Part shown: positions 1,529 through 12,386 of the stretch, one piece after another
Layout of the letters: each line of letters starts with the position of its first letter
How positions within the stretch are numbered: position 1 is the stretch's first letter
Virus record (IMG/VR): IMGVR_UViG_3300020045_005409
Location: 1 to 38,341 of that record
DNA length: 38,341 bases
Direction: 5' to 3' (one strand)
From: a virus
Lineage: Duplodnaviria > Caudoviricetes
Translations under genes and position numbers: made by a program
The notes under the pieces: generated by a model
What the model was told of the DNA's origin: nothing
Seen by the model: the letters and a program-made list of their open reading frames with translations, nothing else
The model's database searches: none

Positions 1529-1847
1529 TGTCCTTATAATACTGGTTTTCCACCCATACTGGCTTAGCATTCTTAACCTCTTCTCTTGAGACTCTACCTT
1601 CCCTAACCATCTGTTGTACAGACTCGGGATATTTAGTTACATACTCCTTGCTCAAGCTAGATTCCCTAAAAGGTTGCAAAATATCTGTTTTATATACTTT
1701 TCTGTCCTCTTTTATACCATCACTCGTTACTTCTATAGTCTCCTTTATTCTATCTGCTTTATGTTTATCCTGGCACTCCTGGCAGTATGTCCAGCCAATG
1801 GGGTGAGTGAATAGACCCTCATTCCGGTTACAATTTAGGCAGATCAC
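1521..1847 (-). CDS. Hypothetical Zn-finger protein
   Basis: CLNC...CQEC; GTGA overlap with the groEL stop. Confidence 0.7.
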   Translation of the reverse strand: MICLNCNRNEGLFTHPIGWTYCQECQDKHKADRIKETIEVTSDGIKEDRKVYKTDILQPFRESSLSKEYVTKYPESVQQMVREGRVSREEVKNAKPVWVENQYYKDNE

Positions 1848-3433
1848 TTCTTTACATTATCTTCTGGTCTCTCATCTCCCACCACCGCCGCGCCGGTTGT
1901 GATTAACTGAATAGCTACACTAACGGCAGTCTTAATGGCACTGGTAGGTACGAGGGTGGGATCGATGATACCCTCCTTGACCATGTTTTTAAATTGTCCG
2001 TCAGTGACGTCTAATCCGTAAAGATATTCGGCTTCAGACCACTCCGCTAACTTTTCTCCACCATCAAACCCAGCATTCTCGACGAGTTTCTTAAATGGCC
2101 TGGCAAGTGCGTCGAATAGTATCTTATGTCCTAACTTATCCTTATCTAGCACCTCTCTAGCTGTTAGATACACCGTCTCACCTCCTGGCACTATTCCATA
2201 TTTAGTAGCGGCTTGAGTAGCGGCCACAGCATCTATAGCACGTTCTTTCCTCTCATTCGTTTCCACTTCAACTTCACCACCAATCTTGATGACGGCAATT
2301 CCATTGGTTAGTTTTCCATATCTCTCTCTTAGTTTCTGCTTGTCCCATTCTCCAATCTCTGGGTCTTCTCCTTGAGTCTTAATTACCTGAATTCGTTGTA
2401 ATACATCGTCTTTATGACCAGCACCACCCCTGATTATTGTCGATATCTTACTTGAGATGATCTTCTGGGCATGTCCCAAGTCGTCAAACTTAAGCTGATC
2501 GAATTTCATATTGGCGTCACGAGATACGAACTTAGCTCCAGTCATGGCGCAGATATCTTGAAGGACATCTCTCTGATGCTGAGCTACACCTGGGGCGCGT
2601 ACCGCTATGCCTAGGAACTTGCCCTCTATCTTGGAATTCAGGAGTACTTGTAAGAAGTCACCGCCTATTTCTGGAGAGATGAATAGCATTTTGTTTACTC
2701 CATTTGGTACAACTTCGCTCTCTAAAAATTTGGCCACCTGGCTTATGTTTTGAAGTGGTATATCAGTTACTAGGATGTGACAGTCCTCAAGTACAGCTGT
2801 CATGCGTTCGCGTTCTGTCGCCATGAACTCGTGGGCATATCCCTTGTCTATCTGCATACCCTCTTGCATCTCAACGATAGTATCGGCGGCTTTGGACTCC
2901 TCAACGGTGACTATTCCTTCCTCACCAATCTTATGGACGGTCTCTGCTATCAACTTACCAAGTTCGGCGTCTCCTGCCGAAACCGTGGCCACGCTTATTT
3001 TCTGTTCTAGTGTCTTTATGGGACGGGATAGTTTCTCTACTTTGGCAATGACAAGCTTACTAGCTTCTTCCATCTCTCGCCTTAGCGACATGCTATTAAC
3101 CCCACCAGATACAGCCTTGAGGGCCTCTTTAAGTATGGCCTGAGCTAATACCATAACGGCGGTTGTACCGTCACCCACAGCATCCCTTTGTTTCTTGGCC
3201 GCTTCTTGAATAATCCTAGCTCCTAGAGAGGCATAGGGGTCACGAGGCTTAACCGATTCTGAAACTGAGACTCCATCGTGTAGTACGACCACCGCATATC
3301 CCTTGTCTATAGCTACGTTCTTACCACGAGGACCAAGAGTGGTAGTTGTAGCATCACATACTAGGTTCACGCCCTCCATTAGCTTAGCTATCGCCTCATC
3401 TCCTAAAGTAACCTGGGTAAACTTACTTGTCAT
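1844..3433 (-). CDS. groEL: Chaperonin GroEL (Cpn60), phage-encoded
   Basis: TLGPRG, DGVSV, GDGTT, IDAVAAT (catalytic Asp equivalent), GIVPGG and GIIDP motifs; likely start MTSKF at 3433; no GGM tail. Confidence 0.96.
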   Translation of the reverse strand: MTSKFTQVTLGDEAIAKLMEGVNLVCDATTTTLGPRGKNVAIDKGYAVVVLHDGVSVSESVKPRDPYASLGARIIQEAAKKQRDAVGDGTTAVMVLAQAILKEALKAVSGGVNSMSLRREMEEASKLVIAKVEKLSRPIKTLEQKISVATVSAGDAELGKLIAETVHKIGEEGIVTVEESKAADTIVEMQEGMQIDKGYAHEFMATERERMTAVLEDCHILVTDIPLQNISQVAKFLESEVVPNGVNKMLFISPEIGGDFLQVLLNSKIEGKFLGIAVRAPGVAQHQRDVLQDICAMTGAKFVSRDANMKFDQLKFDDLGHAQKIISSKISTIIRGGAGHKDDVLQRIQVIKTQGEDPEIGEWDKQKLRERYGKLTNGIAVIKIGGEVEVETNERKERAIDAVAATQAATKYGIVPGGETVYLTAREVLDKDKLGHKILFDALARPFKKLVENAGFDGGEKLAEWSEAEYLYGLDVTDGQFKNMVKEGIIDPTLVPTSAIKTAVSVAIQLITTGAAVVGDERPEDNVKK

Positions 3434-3740
3434 CAACATCTGATTCGTCTTTTTTGGTAACAACTTCTGACAGCTTTGCAATTATTTGATAATAGGGTAC
3501 AGCACGGTATGGTAAATGATCTACATCAAACGTCTCCTGTGCATAACGATGAATGATTACATCTCCTACGCTAACGGGGCATACACGCTTGTTACCGTGG
3601 TCATCAAGATATTCATCACCTACAGCTATTACTTTTGATTTCTGAGACTCTCCCACTTCTTCCTTAATACTCGAAAATGTCTGATCTGGGACATATGGTT
3701 CGCAAATAACAAAACCTGGAAGTGGAGATATTTTTCTCAT
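3423..3740 (-). CDS. groES: Co-chaperonin GroES (Cpn10), divergent
   Basis: ISPLPGFVIC...KVIAVG.....G.RVCPVSVGDVII...IIA; immediately upstream of groEL. Confidence 0.88.
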   Translation of the reverse strand: MRKISPLPGFVICEPYVPDQTFSSIKEEVGESQKSKVIAVGDEYLDDHGNKRVCPVSVGDVIIHRYAQETFDVDHLPYRAVPYYQIIAKLSEVVTKKDESDVDDK

Positions 3741-3795: not shown

Positions 3796-3824
3796 AGTTT
3801 AACTTATAAATATATGACCGTCAA
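3796..3824 (-). promoter_or_regulatory. Sigma70-type promoter for the groES-groEL unit
   Basis: TTGACG-N17-TAAACT on the minus strand. Confidence 0.65.
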
Positions 3825-3827
3825 CAC

Positions 3828-3836
3828 TGATATAAT
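3828..3836 (+). promoter_or_regulatory. Extended -10 promoter (TGATATAAT) for the HTH gene, near-leaderless
   Basis: TGATATAAT 8 nt before ATG 3845; divergent from the groES promoter. Confidence 0.65.
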
Positions 3837-3844
3837 AGCCATCA

Positions 3845-4162
3845 ATGTCACCACTCCGCTCCCAAGCCACTGAACTCCGCAAACAAGGTCTTACTTTTCA
3901 CGAAATTGGTCAAAGGTTGGGGGTTACTAGACAGAGGGCGTTCACTTTGATTACAGGCAACAAAGCAATTCATCGATACGCTTACAAGCATGCACCCGAG
4001 ATCTTCAATAAAACTTACTGTCAAAACTGTGGGGCAGAAGAACCGAACACGTTTATCTTGCTTGATCCTACCAAAGAACTCGCACCCGATAACCTAATCA
4101 AACTCTGTAAGTTGTGCGGGATTAAGATCGTATCCAAGAGAAGAAACTACAAGAATAGGTAA
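3845..4162 (+). CDS. HTH DNA-binding protein with C-terminal Zn/HNH-like domain; candidate regulator
   Basis: LRKQGLTFHEIGQRLGVTRQRA (sigma70-region-4-like HTH); CQNC...NLIKLCKLC without catalytic His. Confidence 0.75.
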   Translation: MSPLRSQATELRKQGLTFHEIGQRLGVTRQRAFTLITGNKAIHRYAYKHAPEIFNKTYCQNCGAEEPNTFILLDPTKELAPDNLIKLCKLCGIKIVSKRRNYKNR

Positions 4163-4181
4163 TTGATCTAGTTTGATGTAG

Positions 4182-4209
4182 TTGATTCGTTGTATAGATG
4201 TGTTATAGT
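4182..4209 (+). promoter_or_regulatory. Promoter with extended -10
   Basis: TTGATT-N16-TATAGT with TG at the extended position. Confidence 0.55.
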
Positions 4210-4331
4210 TTCATTACAGTTATTAAGACTGTGGATGGGATCGTTGTAATGAATAATATAGCTACTTTTGGGAGGTGCTGTGTTTCTGTTATTCTTACAG
4301 CACGCACCACATCCTAAGAGTAGCTTTTTTT
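4210..4331 (+). terminator. Structured leader ending in an intrinsic terminator (attenuator)
   Basis: TTCATTACA/TGTAATGAA stem; 14-bp AGCTACTTTTGGGA/TCCTAAGAGTAGCT stem enclosing GTGCTGT/ACAGCAC, followed by a T run and then GTG. Confidence 0.7.
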
Positions 4332-4601
4332 GTGACTTGTAAGTACTGCCAATCAGACAGAGTAGTTCCAGTTAAGTTGCTTGGTTATGGACCTAAGGAT
4401 GGTGTTGTGTACCACTACAAGCTAATCTGCCAATCGTGTAAGAAACAGCGCTTCGTTAAGAGAACTCAAACAAACTTCGACACTTTCGTTAATATAACCT
4501 GGACCAAGTCCAAATCATTCATAGCAAATCAAACAGTTAAACGATTATCGGCAGACTCACCAGGCTGTTTGGTTGAAGATAGGTGGGAGACAAAACCCTG
4601 A
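4332..4601 (+). CDS. Small Zn-ribbon protein
   Basis: In-frame GTG directly after the U-tract: MTCKYC...ICQSCKK. Confidence 0.6.
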   Translation: MTCKYCQSDRVVPVKLLGYGPKDGVVYHYKLICQSCKKQRFVKRTQTNFDTFVNITWTKSKSFIANQTVKRLSADSPGCLVEDRWETKP

Positions 4602-4869
4602 AAGAGGTGGTGAGAGCATGGTTAGCTTCCTGCTAAGCAAACGAAATAGCAGGGCGTGACTGGGAGACCAGGCTGTAGAGTGAACAGCACCGATCTAGTA
4701 AGACACACGGATACACGTAACGAAGTGAAACGACTAGACAATAGCACTTGCAAGGTAACGGAGAGAAAACCGACTAATTACCCCACAGACAATATACGAG
4801 CATTAAACCCCGTATTGGCCCTATGCGTTCTTGGGAGGATAACTTGGTGGTGAATAACCACCGTTTAAC
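4536..4869 (+). ncRNA. Large multi-branch structured RNA candidate (about 330 nt)
   Basis: Closing pair GTTAAACG(4536)/CGTTTAAC(4862); internal stems CTCACCA/TGGTGAG, CCTGCTA/TAGCAGG, CTGG-GAGA-CCAG, GCTGT/ACAGC, TCTAGT/ACTAGA, GGTAA/TTACC, GGTGGT/ACCACC. Confidence 0.55.
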
Positions 4870-4949
4870 CAGTTAACCGAATAATATTTTTTGAACAGGG
4901 GTCTAAGGGGAATTGACTGGGGGTTGGAAGACTACTTCTTTGCTTACAG

Positions 4950-4995
4950 GTACACAACAAGTACAGAATGAGTACAGGACGGGTACAGAAGTGCA
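4950..4995 (+). repeat. Iteron-like GTACA repeats at 11-bp spacing (putative origin)
   Basis: GTACA at 4950, 4961, 4972 and 4983 (plus GTGCA at 4991), followed by an AT-rich tract to about 5110. Confidence 0.6.
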
Positions 4996-5110
4996 CTTAG
5001 TTATTGCGCATTATTAAGGATCAACCTTATACTCACGAAAGAATAACGGGAAAATTTATTCAATTGTTATTGGCGTAATAACTATATCAAACAGTATCTT
5101 ACTTGCTATA

Positions 5111-5139
5111 TTGACAGTTGTCAACACGGCTAGTAGACT
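5111..5139 (+). promoter_or_regulatory. Early sigma70 promoter with palindromic operator; leaderless
   Basis: TTGACA-N17-TAGACT, 6 nt to ATG 5146; TTGACA-GT-TGTCAA inverted repeat over the -35. Confidence 0.75.
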
Positions 5140-5145
5140 AGAGGC

Positions 5146-5394
5146 ATGATAAACACATACAAAGGTTTTAAAGGTTTTGTTAGAAGGTTGAAATGTTTTT
5201 TTCTAGGACACACAGATAAATTCACACCGGAGGAGATGGAGCAGGGAGTGCAGGAGCTGTTGGATAATATAAAGAAAACGAAAGATAAGGAAGCATTTGA
5301 GAAGTTTGTTCGCAAAGAAACTAAGAAGCTGGTTAAGACTTACATTAAAGAGAACAGATATTGCCCTAGGTGTGGCAAGAATAATATTAGGTAA
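5146..5394 (+). CDS. Small Zn-binding protein (DUF1660-like)
   Basis: LKCFFLGH...YCPRCGK. Confidence 0.65.
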   Translation: MINTYKGFKGFVRRLKCFFLGHTDKFTPEEMEQGVQELLDNIKKTKDKEAFEKFVRKETKKLVKTYIKENRYCPRCGKNNIR

Positions 5395-5398
5395 AGCT

Positions 5399-5653
5399 AT
5401 GAAAATAACCGAAAAGAAACTGAGAAAAATAGTTAGACTTGCTTTAAGAGGGGCTTATGAGAACATATGCGACGTTATAACAGCCGAAGAACTAAAGGAT
5501 GAGCCGGTAGTTGCTACGCTTGAGGTAGATTATGGATTTACGGATAAGGCTGGCGATACTATCAAGTGCGAGAGATGCGGTAAGTTTATTTCTAAGGGAG
5601 AAAACGTAGTCCACTGGTGTACACCTCCACACGACCACCCCCCATTCCAATGA
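5399..5653 (+). CDS. Hypothetical protein with C-terminal Zn finger
   Basis: Start MKITEKK; CERC...HWC. Confidence 0.6.
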   Translation: MKITEKKLRKIVRLALRGAYENICDVITAEELKDEPVVATLEVDYGFTDKAGDTIKCERCGKFISKGENVVHWCTPPHDHPPFQ

Positions 5654-7096: not shown

Positions 7097-7127
7097 AAAG
7101 CTAGATTAAAAATTAGAAAAAAATTAG

Positions 7128-7331
7128 ATGAAAAAGGATAGTAGTTTCCCAAGGATCGAGAGTTACTTTCACTGTAGACACTGTATGAGTGGACAGTTAG
7201 CATGTGGTTTTACCAAAGAAGGATTGCAAGTATATTGCGAGACTTGTTCTATGAACGTCATAGACCTGGACTTCATGGGACAGAAGGTTAAACCTTATGA
7301 AAAGTTAGTATTAAAAACCATAAAAAATTAG
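7128..7331 (+). CDS. Small Cys-rich hypothetical protein
   Basis: HCRHC...YCETC; A-rich leader TTAAAATTAGAAAAAATTAG. Confidence 0.7.
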   Translation: MKKDSSFPRIESYFHCRHCMSGQLACGFTKEGLQVYCETCSMNVIDLDFMGQKVKPYEKLVLKTIKN

Positions 7332-12207: not shown

Positions 12208-12386
12208 CCGAGAAGAGAACCATAAACTTCGAGGACTCTAAATCATCATTTGGCAACGGCGACGGCGACGGCAACGGCTACGGCGACGGCGACGGCAACG
12301 GCGACGGCAACGGCTACGGCGACGGCGACGGCAACGGCGACGGCGACGGCAACGGCGACGGCAACGGCTACGGCGACGGCGTATGA
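12195..12386 (+). CDS. Gly-(Asp/Asn/Tyr) repeat protein
   Basis: 63 aa, mostly GD/GN/GY. Confidence 0.7.
   Translation: MEEIAEKRTINFEDSKSSFGNGDGDGNGYGDGDGNGDGNGYGDGDGNGDGDGNGDGNGYGDGV
12252..12380 (+). repeat. Hexanucleotide tandem repeat (GGC-DAC) x21
   Basis: GGCAAC/GGCGAC/GGCTAC units. Confidence 0.95.

What the first reader, a model, noticed from the sequence alone, without database searches (positions are those of the whole stretch)
4536..4869. About 330-nt multi-branch RNA overlapping the 3' end of a small Zn-ribbon gene
Seen: an 8-bp long-range closing helix (GTTAAACG/CGTTTAAC) plus TTATC/GATAA enclose at least eight hairpins. These include a GNRA-capped CTGG-GAGA-CCAG and a possible pseudoknot (loop GCAT 4800 with ATGC 4823). 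The interval has little convincing coding potential beyond 4601. Inference: a large ncRNA that I cannot assign to RNase P, tmRNA, group I/II intron or hammerhead classes. It could be a replication primer RNA or an RNP partner of the overlapping Zn-ribbon protein.
Basis: partly seen in the sequence, partly recalled or inferred. Interest (0 to 1): 0.72.

Follow-up and report, generated by a model that had tools for sequence, protein, structure and literature searches.

The report
Phage origin-like spacer beside zinc-ribbon gene
This non-coding stretch of a bacteriophage genome folds only modestly and shares short sequence blocks with one distant phage; it is likely part of the place where the phage starts copying its DNA rather than a large stand-alone RNA.

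Summary
The helices named are in the sequence, but the 334-nt fold is no better than shuffles (RNA z -1.3). The 8-bp closing helix drops from probability 0.86 to 0.0 once short flanks are added. There is no Rfam match. The record is a 38-kb phage with a capsid related to a Saccharibacteria phage. The Zn-ribbon gene belongs to a real family, and its conserved part ends near 4540. ORF 4656-4853 has no homologue. One distant phage has the same cassette: promoter, terminator hairpin, Zn-ribbon gene, spacer. Its spacer shares colinear blocks with this one (p 0.003-0.03), including a doubled box with a CG-GNA-closed mini-hairpin core. The shared order runs past 4869 into G-tracts and an 11-bp-phased repeat array (4950-4990). 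In another phage the gene sits between a truncated initiator and a DnaB helicase; no initiator was found here. Best reading (0.4): a replication-origin priming element acting as RNA and/or single-stranded DNA. Two relatives lack a downstream spacer, and only two copies are known, so structure is not shown by covariation.

The parts
4182..4209 (+). sigma-70-like promoter with TG extension, likely start of the early transcript
   Evidence: consensus scan, 9 of 12 matches; 5 found against 4.0 in shuffles, so weak alone; a promoter-like site lies at the same place in L127
4255..4331 (+). leader hairpin followed by seven T, ending at the start codon; likely terminator or attenuator
   Evidence: 29-nt arms; z -4.64, 0 of 200 shuffles; similar hairpin before the gene in L127, z 6.3
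4332..4601 (+). Zn-ribbon gene; likely start GTG 4332, not 4275; conserved part ends near 4540, the tail is not conserved
   Evidence: 30 hits at E<=0.001, alignment, model pLDDT 94.7, codon scores
4527..4574 (+).
   Evidence: pair probability 0.79-0.95
4536..4543 (+). 5' arm of the 8-bp inverted repeat
   Evidence: sequence; a 5-bp counterpart at the same place in L127, 9% chance
4629..4669 (+). core block shared with L127: CCTG/CAGG helix, then GC, R-TGACTGGGA-R-ACC
   Evidence: best local alignment, p 0.009 against 2000 shuffles; CCTG/CAGG pairs at 0.75-0.98 in L127
4660..4738 (+). cluster of three stable hairpins; the two after 4671 have no counterpart in L127
   Evidence: pair probabilities 0.84-0.99 in three contexts, lost when the gene is folded along; gap in the anchored alignment
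4719..4734 (+). first copy of the doubled box, with an A-C-GAA-G-T mini-hairpin core
   Evidence: two copies in L127 with a G-C-GAA-G-C core
4757..4774 (+). second copy of the doubled box, 38 nt downstream
   Evidence: 18 identities in 22 columns
4780..4924 (+).
   Evidence: main helices 0.91-0.99, but z only -1.38; one of two places on the + strand with three G4+ runs in 40 nt
4862..4869 (+). 3' arm of the 8-bp inverted repeat, inside the shared block CACCGT-W-TA
4950..4993 (+). four GTACA boxes at 11-bp period, iteron-like
   Evidence: TRF period 11, 3.7 copies; strongest 11-nt-phased repeat of the window
4998..5139 (+). A+T-rich stretch ending in a second promoter-like site (5111-5139)
   Evidence: GC 0.33; 10 of 12 matches

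Best explanation
The stretch is a non-coding spacer after a Zn-ribbon gene that is likely the priming part of the phage's replication origin, running from about 4590 to 4990 rather than 4536-4869. Shown: the order promoter-like site, terminator hairpin, Zn-ribbon gene, spacer with a doubled box, G-tracts, 11-bp array, A+T-rich stretch. Also shown: a like order in one distant phage. Inferred: read-through of the leader terminator would make a transcript of about 700 nt. Its G-rich 3' part would stay hybridised to the template next to the array, as ColE1 RNA II does. The Zn-ribbon protein would bind the array or the folded strand. Host enzymes would trim the hybrid to a primer, and the boxes on the displaced + strand would fold as DNA mini-hairpins that help load host priming proteins. 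Whether the hairpins act as RNA, as single-stranded DNA or both is open.
For: Context: in L250 the gene lies between a truncated initiator (phrog_2562 E 7e-9 for the L248 copy; Pfam Lin1244_N) and a DnaD-like loader fragment plus a DnaB-like helicase. One homologue is fused to an RNase H-like domain (phrog_531 E 2.9e-4). No initiator, primase or helicase among 24 window ORFs in Pfam or 29 in PHROGs. Anatomy: 11-bp array; lowest-GC 400-nt window of the first 16 kb at 5001-5400 and cumulative GC-skew minimum at 3801-4200. Relative: colinear blocks, p 0.003-0.03 over nine settings; the doubled box twice in each spacer and nowhere else in 1.13 Mb of fetched sequence; a G-C to A-T exchange around C-GAA-G; four mini-hairpins in the L127 spacer, the densest cluster in its 20 kb. 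Literature: phased iterons beside an A+T-rich region, and ColE1 priming (PMC5043065, passages); mini-hairpins at G4 and ssiA priming sites (PMC13037366, passages).
Against: Only two copies of the spacer are known and the similarity is weak: in natural-sequence controls 1-3 of 540 windows reach the score, the syntenic one included where it does. The box and array patterns were drawn after seeing them. The window has one mini-hairpin with two pairs, which is not an enrichment. The L127 array is weak: 16 of 19,967 positions reach it. TRF lists two other period-11 arrays in the window. The skew minimum coincides with the divergence of transcription. L248/L250 and L251 have no downstream spacer, and their upstream spacers do not resemble this one. 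Two complete phages with related capsids also have no annotated initiator, yet lack the gene and the motifs. The boxes lie upstream of the G-tracts, while the ColE1 primosome site lies downstream of its origin (recalled). No expression or replication data.
Confidence: 0.4

Rival explanations
1. An ordinary, loosely constrained intergenic spacer; its hairpins and its likeness to L127 are mostly chance.
For: z -1.3 and -0.4; GNRA count as expected; helices change with the bounds; p only about 0.01 for one comparison.
Against: A 550-nt gap in a dense phage genome; the doubled box in both spacers; the 11-bp array.
Confidence: 0.2
2. A stable, trans-acting structured RNA of a new class, cut out of the early transcript and bound by the Zn-ribbon protein.
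For: Stable hairpin cluster 4620-4739; GNRA loops at the shared GG-GARA-CC and in L127; CCTG/CAGG helix in both; a 5-bp closing helix at matching ends in L127 with one exchange on both sides; all four settings of the gene have a long non-coding neighbour.
Against: No overall stability; the closing helix is displaced by flanks and the L127 helix has 9% chance; the consensus fold of the anchored pair is poor (-7.6 kcal/mol); upstream spacers of L248 and L251 are unrelated in sequence.
Confidence: 0.15
3. A cis-regulatory 3' UTR or leader of the early operon, in which alternative folds control read-through, processing or translation of the Zn-ribbon gene (autoregulation).
For: Mutually exclusive helices; a long colinear fold-back of 4572-4770 onto the gene's first half and start codon (0 of 500 shuffles in hand-picked bounds); conserved leader terminator.
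Against: The fold-back ranks 11th of 947 positions in the window, has p 0.03 in neutral bounds and is absent in 3 of 3 relatives.
Confidence: 0.15
4. A self-splicing intron or a small inserted element at the end of the gene.
For: 12-bp helix with U-G pairs between the gene's end and 4563-4574, like a group I P1; CAGTTAA repeated at 4534 and 4870 around the inverted repeat; removal of 4536-4869 would leave a short C-terminus like those of homologues (read).
Against: No Rfam intron hit at E<=10; no TAGTC partner downstream of either GACTA; no GTGYG start or domain V seen; single copy; the shared blocks run past 4869.
Confidence: 0.05
5. A coding or decayed coding region: ORF 4656-4853 or a read-through extension of the Zn-ribbon frame.
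For: The ORF and the matching ATG in L127 are both in frame with the Zn-ribbon gene and begin MTG[KR]P.
Against: The L127 frame stops after 11 codons; no homologue; no family hit; codon score 0.007 without frame preference; four stops of two kinds lie between the two frames; single-base gaps in the shared block.
Confidence: 0.05

Closest known systems
ColE1 RNA II primer replicon
   Same: No recognisable initiator; a promoter several hundred nt upstream of an origin-like site; a foldable transcript; an RNase H link in one homologue of the neighbouring protein.
   Different: No sequence likeness; no antisense RNA I shown; a protein gene lies inside the transcript; an iteron-like array follows; found in a phage.
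ARRPOF, GEBRO and PAGEV motifs (PMC5737381, passages read)
   Same: Non-coding elements of 223-349 nt tied to replication regions, where RNA and single-stranded DNA cannot be told apart by computation.
   Different: No cmscan match; those are plasmid motifs defined on many sequences, this rests on two.
Iteron origins (lambda, P1, F, RK2; PMC5043065, passages read)
   Same: Direct repeats in helical phase followed by an A+T-rich stretch, with transcription running into them.
   Different: Repeats are 11 bp with a 5-6 base core; no Rep or O protein; the only candidate binder is a 70-residue Zn ribbon.
Single-strand initiation sites with DNA mini-hairpins (G4 origin, RSF1010 ssiA; PMC13037366, passages read)
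   Same: C-GNA-G cores in repeated boxes on one strand, with a stem exchange between the two phages.
   Different: Clear in L127 (four), weak in the window (one); no primase gene; no similarity beyond the core.
Large bacterial ncRNAs (GOLLD, ROOL, OLE, HEARO)
   Same: Phage location, length, A-rich linkers.
   Different: No Rfam match, no tRNA nearby, no significant stability, no covariation shown.

Membership tests
Any Rfam 15 family (4227 models) | score at the gathering threshold, or a credible E-value | tested here: not met
   0 hits in the window; at E<=10 in 4150-5200 only three chance hits, none in 4536-4869; one chance hit in four related loci. That ARRPOF, GEBRO, GOLLD, ROOL, OLE, HEARO, RNase P and intron models are among the 4227 is recalled.
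Group I intron | P1 helix with a U-G pair at the 5' splice site | tested here: met
   12-bp helix 4527-4538/4563-4574 with U-G pairs
Group I intron | P3/P7 core with a downstream partner for GACU and a G-binding pair (consensus recalled) | tested here: not met
   GACTA at 4732 and 4772 has no downstream TAGTC; no Rfam hit
Group II intron | GUGYG start, domain V, AY end (recalled) | tested here: not met
   starts GTTAA, ends AC; no domain V hit
tRNA or tmRNA | ARAGORN call | tested here: not met
   0 genes
ColE1-type RNA-primed replicon | no element-encoded initiator | tested here: inconclusive
   none among 29 ORFs, but most ORFs are unassigned and the record is 92% complete
ColE1-type RNA-primed replicon | persistent RNA-DNA hybrid cut by RNase H to a primer | not testable with these tools
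   G-tracts present; needs biochemistry
ColE1-type RNA-primed replicon | antisense RNA I against the primer's 5' end | tested here: inconclusive
   no - strand promoter match between 4200 and 5060 in the consensus scan; such scans miss sites
Iteron origin | helically phased direct repeats next to an A+T-rich stretch | tested here: met
Iteron origin | cognate initiator that binds the repeats | not testable with these tools
   no known initiator; the Zn-ribbon model matches only generic ribbons
Single-strand initiation site | clustered mini-hairpins on one strand | tested here: inconclusive
   four in L127, one in the window
MITE or non-autonomous insertion | terminal inverted repeats, target duplication, further copies or empty sites | tested here: inconclusive
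   8-bp inverted repeat with CA on both sides; one copy only; no close relative to show an empty site

The most novel reading that the evidence does not exclude
A minimal phage replicon in which a 70-residue Zn-ribbon protein and the folded RNA transcribed behind its gene replace the initiator protein: an RNA-primed, protein-assisted origin cassette that moves between phages of candidate-phyla bacteria and lands in replication modules, breaking the resident initiator gene.
Probability: 0.15. Interest if true: 0.8.

Novelty: new variant of a known kind. Interest (0 to 1): 0.4.

Why it matters
This phage and two complete phages with related capsids show no recognisable replication initiator, so how they start replication is open. 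A defined 1-kb cassette with a small, well-modelled protein makes that testable. If instead the spacer is a stable RNA, it would be an uncatalogued class. As a large ornate RNA closed at 4536/4869 it is not supported.

Tried and rejected
DNA similarity: none in phages and only chance-level rows. Zn-ribbon tblastn in phages: none. Exact 17-mer in viral contigs: 0. Hairpin pattern: 120 loci fetched of about 1200, none alike by nhmmer. Core pattern: 120 of about 310; those visible in the cut output were coding chance matches. The stricter pattern gave 3, of which one is L127 and two are coding. Genome scan for the gene: 0; for the spacer motif: 10 rows, read as chance. GroES relatives: 5 weak loci without the gene. 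A region of MW202566 with mini-hairpins is not similar (p 0.25 and 0.57). Gene fold-back rejected. One further box match in G028 lies beside what reads by eye as a tRNA 3' half. Sequencing runs: none was listed. Fold searches: no Foldseek match at E<=0.001 and best Z 3.6. Atlas: unnamed clusters only. Rows dropped: P0012 (repeat artefact) and P0015 (nine stretches, not inspected) from all alignments, P0016 from A1. Earlier findings: four look-ups, nothing shown. Cluster look-up could not be made. Paper searches (listings only) showed no description of this element; subscription journals are not covered. The supplement of PMC5737381, with the consensus drawings of ARRPOF, GEBRO and PAGEV, was not read and may bear on the comparison.

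Full report
Setting. The window is a whole virus record, 38,341 bases, linear, 92% complete. Genes on the - strand up to 3740 include a small terminase, groEL and groES; a run of small + strand genes starts at 3845. The capsid protein finds three phage records, among them a Saccharibacteria (TM7) phage at 32% identity and MW202566, which also has groEL. A host among the candidate phyla is inferred from this, not shown.

Check of the observation. All named elements are in the sequence, and the MFE has nine hairpin loops. The fold is not more stable than shuffles: z -1.30 as RNA and -1.23 for 4500-4900. The opposite strand gives -2.52 and the + strand as DNA -2.15. The closing helix has probability 0.86 in the exact bounds and 0.0 in three wider ones, because a 12-bp hairpin (4527-4574) takes its 5' strand. 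Such 8-bp pairs occur 2.5 times per kb here. One GNRA hairpin is what chance gives. Only 4620-4739 is locally stable (z -3.2). Rfam gives nothing, nor does ARAGORN.

The gene. A full-library search with residues from 4332-4538 gave 30 proteins at E<=0.001; 27 were aligned and 32 homologues. The family has two CxxC pairs, a G-x-G-x-K-x-G-x-V-Y-H-Y-K hairpin and an invariant Trp, and most members end within about 25 residues of that Trp. So the part of the ORF that overlaps the finding is a non-conserved tail. The listed start at 4275 lies inside a leader hairpin; GTG 4332 is the likely start. The model is confident (pLDDT 94.7) and resembles generic TFIIS/RPB9/NrdR ribbons only weakly. One member is fused to an RNase H-like domain. 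ORF 4656-4853 has no homologue, no family hit and no codon signal.

Relatives. Scans gave three further settings of the gene: L127 (the same sequence as L249), L248/L250 and L251; none in genome contigs. L127 repeats the cassette: promoter-like site, similar leader hairpin with a T run (z 6.3), gene, a spacer of about 370 nt, next promoter. Its spacer shares with the window a 36-column block (p 0.009) and a colinear chain of shorter blocks (p 0.003-0.03). In natural controls 1-3 of 540 windows score as high. A box of 15-18 nt with a C-GNA-G core occurs twice in each spacer and nowhere else in 1.13 Mb of fetched sequence. Among 48 records it occurs twice in L127's record and once in one other. 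The pattern was drawn from the four copies, so this shows specificity only. The L127 spacer is not stable either (z -0.78, -0.43; DNA 0.11). In L248/L250 and L251 the long non-coding stretch lies upstream of the gene and is unrelated in sequence; its strong folding scores include the leader hairpins. In L250 the cassette lies between a truncated initiator and a DnaD-like fragment followed by a DnaB-like helicase; a mis-assembly there is not excluded.

Origin-like anatomy. Downstream of 4869 lie three G-tracts (4898-4924), four GTACA boxes at 11-bp period (the strongest such phasing in the window), an A+T-rich stretch and a promoter-like site. The cumulative GC skew is lowest at 3801-4200, which is also where transcription diverges. 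No initiator, primase or helicase was found among 24 ORFs in Pfam or 29 in PHROGs. Against this: two other period-11 arrays are listed; the L127 array is weak; the window has only one two-pair mini-hairpin in the spacer; and two complete phages with related capsids lack the gene and the motifs though they too show no annotated initiator.

Mechanism. Most likely (0.4) the spacer is the priming part of an origin. Read-through of the leader terminator would give a transcript whose G-rich end stays on the template beside the array. The Zn-ribbon protein would bind there. Host enzymes would make the primer, and the boxes on the displaced strand would fold as DNA mini-hairpins. The order of parts and their partial conservation are shown; every functional step is inferred, by analogy with ColE1 and iteron origins (PMC5043065, passages), mini-hairpins at priming sites (PMC13037366, passages) and the replication-linked ARRPOF, GEBRO and PAGEV motifs (PMC5737381, passages). 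Rivals: ordinary spacer 0.2, trans-acting RNA 0.15, cis-regulatory UTR 0.15, intron or insertion 0.05, coding 0.05. A long fold-back onto the gene looked striking but ranks 11th of 947 positions and is absent in three relatives.

Verdict. It is not a member of any family tested. It likely works like known origin elements, in an arrangement that my paper searches did not show (listings only). Two copies are too few to prove a structure. Interest 0.4.

Noticed in passing
window 4182-4331: Leader with a strong hairpin and seven T ending exactly at the start codon; better conserved in L127 and more stable than the reported region.
   Followed up: partly
window 1844-3740: The phage carries groES and groEL next to its packaging genes, as does MW202566; the TM7 phage has an annotated chaperonin too.
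   Followed up: partly
L248 71-95 and 526-550; L250: A 24-nt promoter-like repeat truncates a Lin1244-type initiator gene and opens the terminator-spacer-Zn-ribbon cassette; L248 and L250 diverge right after the gene.
   Followed up: partly
L248 690-956 and L251 90-300: Structured non-coding stretches upstream of the gene with short shared words seen by eye (around GATAGTC and ATTTGACCCT); overall similarity not significant (p 0.11).
   Followed up: partly
L248 166-263 and L251 1-96: A related leader hairpin with a T run in both (p 0.007); it recalls targets of c4-type antisense RNAs (label recalled, no Rfam hit).
   Followed up: no
window 4534-4540 and 4870-4876: CAGTTAA direct repeat at 336-nt spacing around the inverted repeat.
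   Followed up: partly
window 4913-5015: A 33-codon open frame over the 11-bp array has a gene-like codon score (0.21); it may be the remnant of an initiator's iteron linker.
   Followed up: partly
window 7102-7135 and 7175-7324: A second period-11 array, next to the most stable 150-nt window of the early region (z -4.7).
   Followed up: no
window 12252-12381: A 6-nt tandem repeat, 21.7 copies, that would encode a Gly-Asp/Asn run.
   Followed up: no
L268 7846-8243 and 13946-14254 (- strand): Two very stable non-coding regions in the TM7 phage (z -6.5 and -9.3 on 8 shuffles); the first holds a tRNA-like 3' end by eye.
   Followed up: no
proteins P0016 and P0014: The Zn-ribbon domain is fused to an RNase H-like domain in one protein and to a longer C-terminal part, helix-turn-helix-like by eye, in another.
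   Followed up: partly
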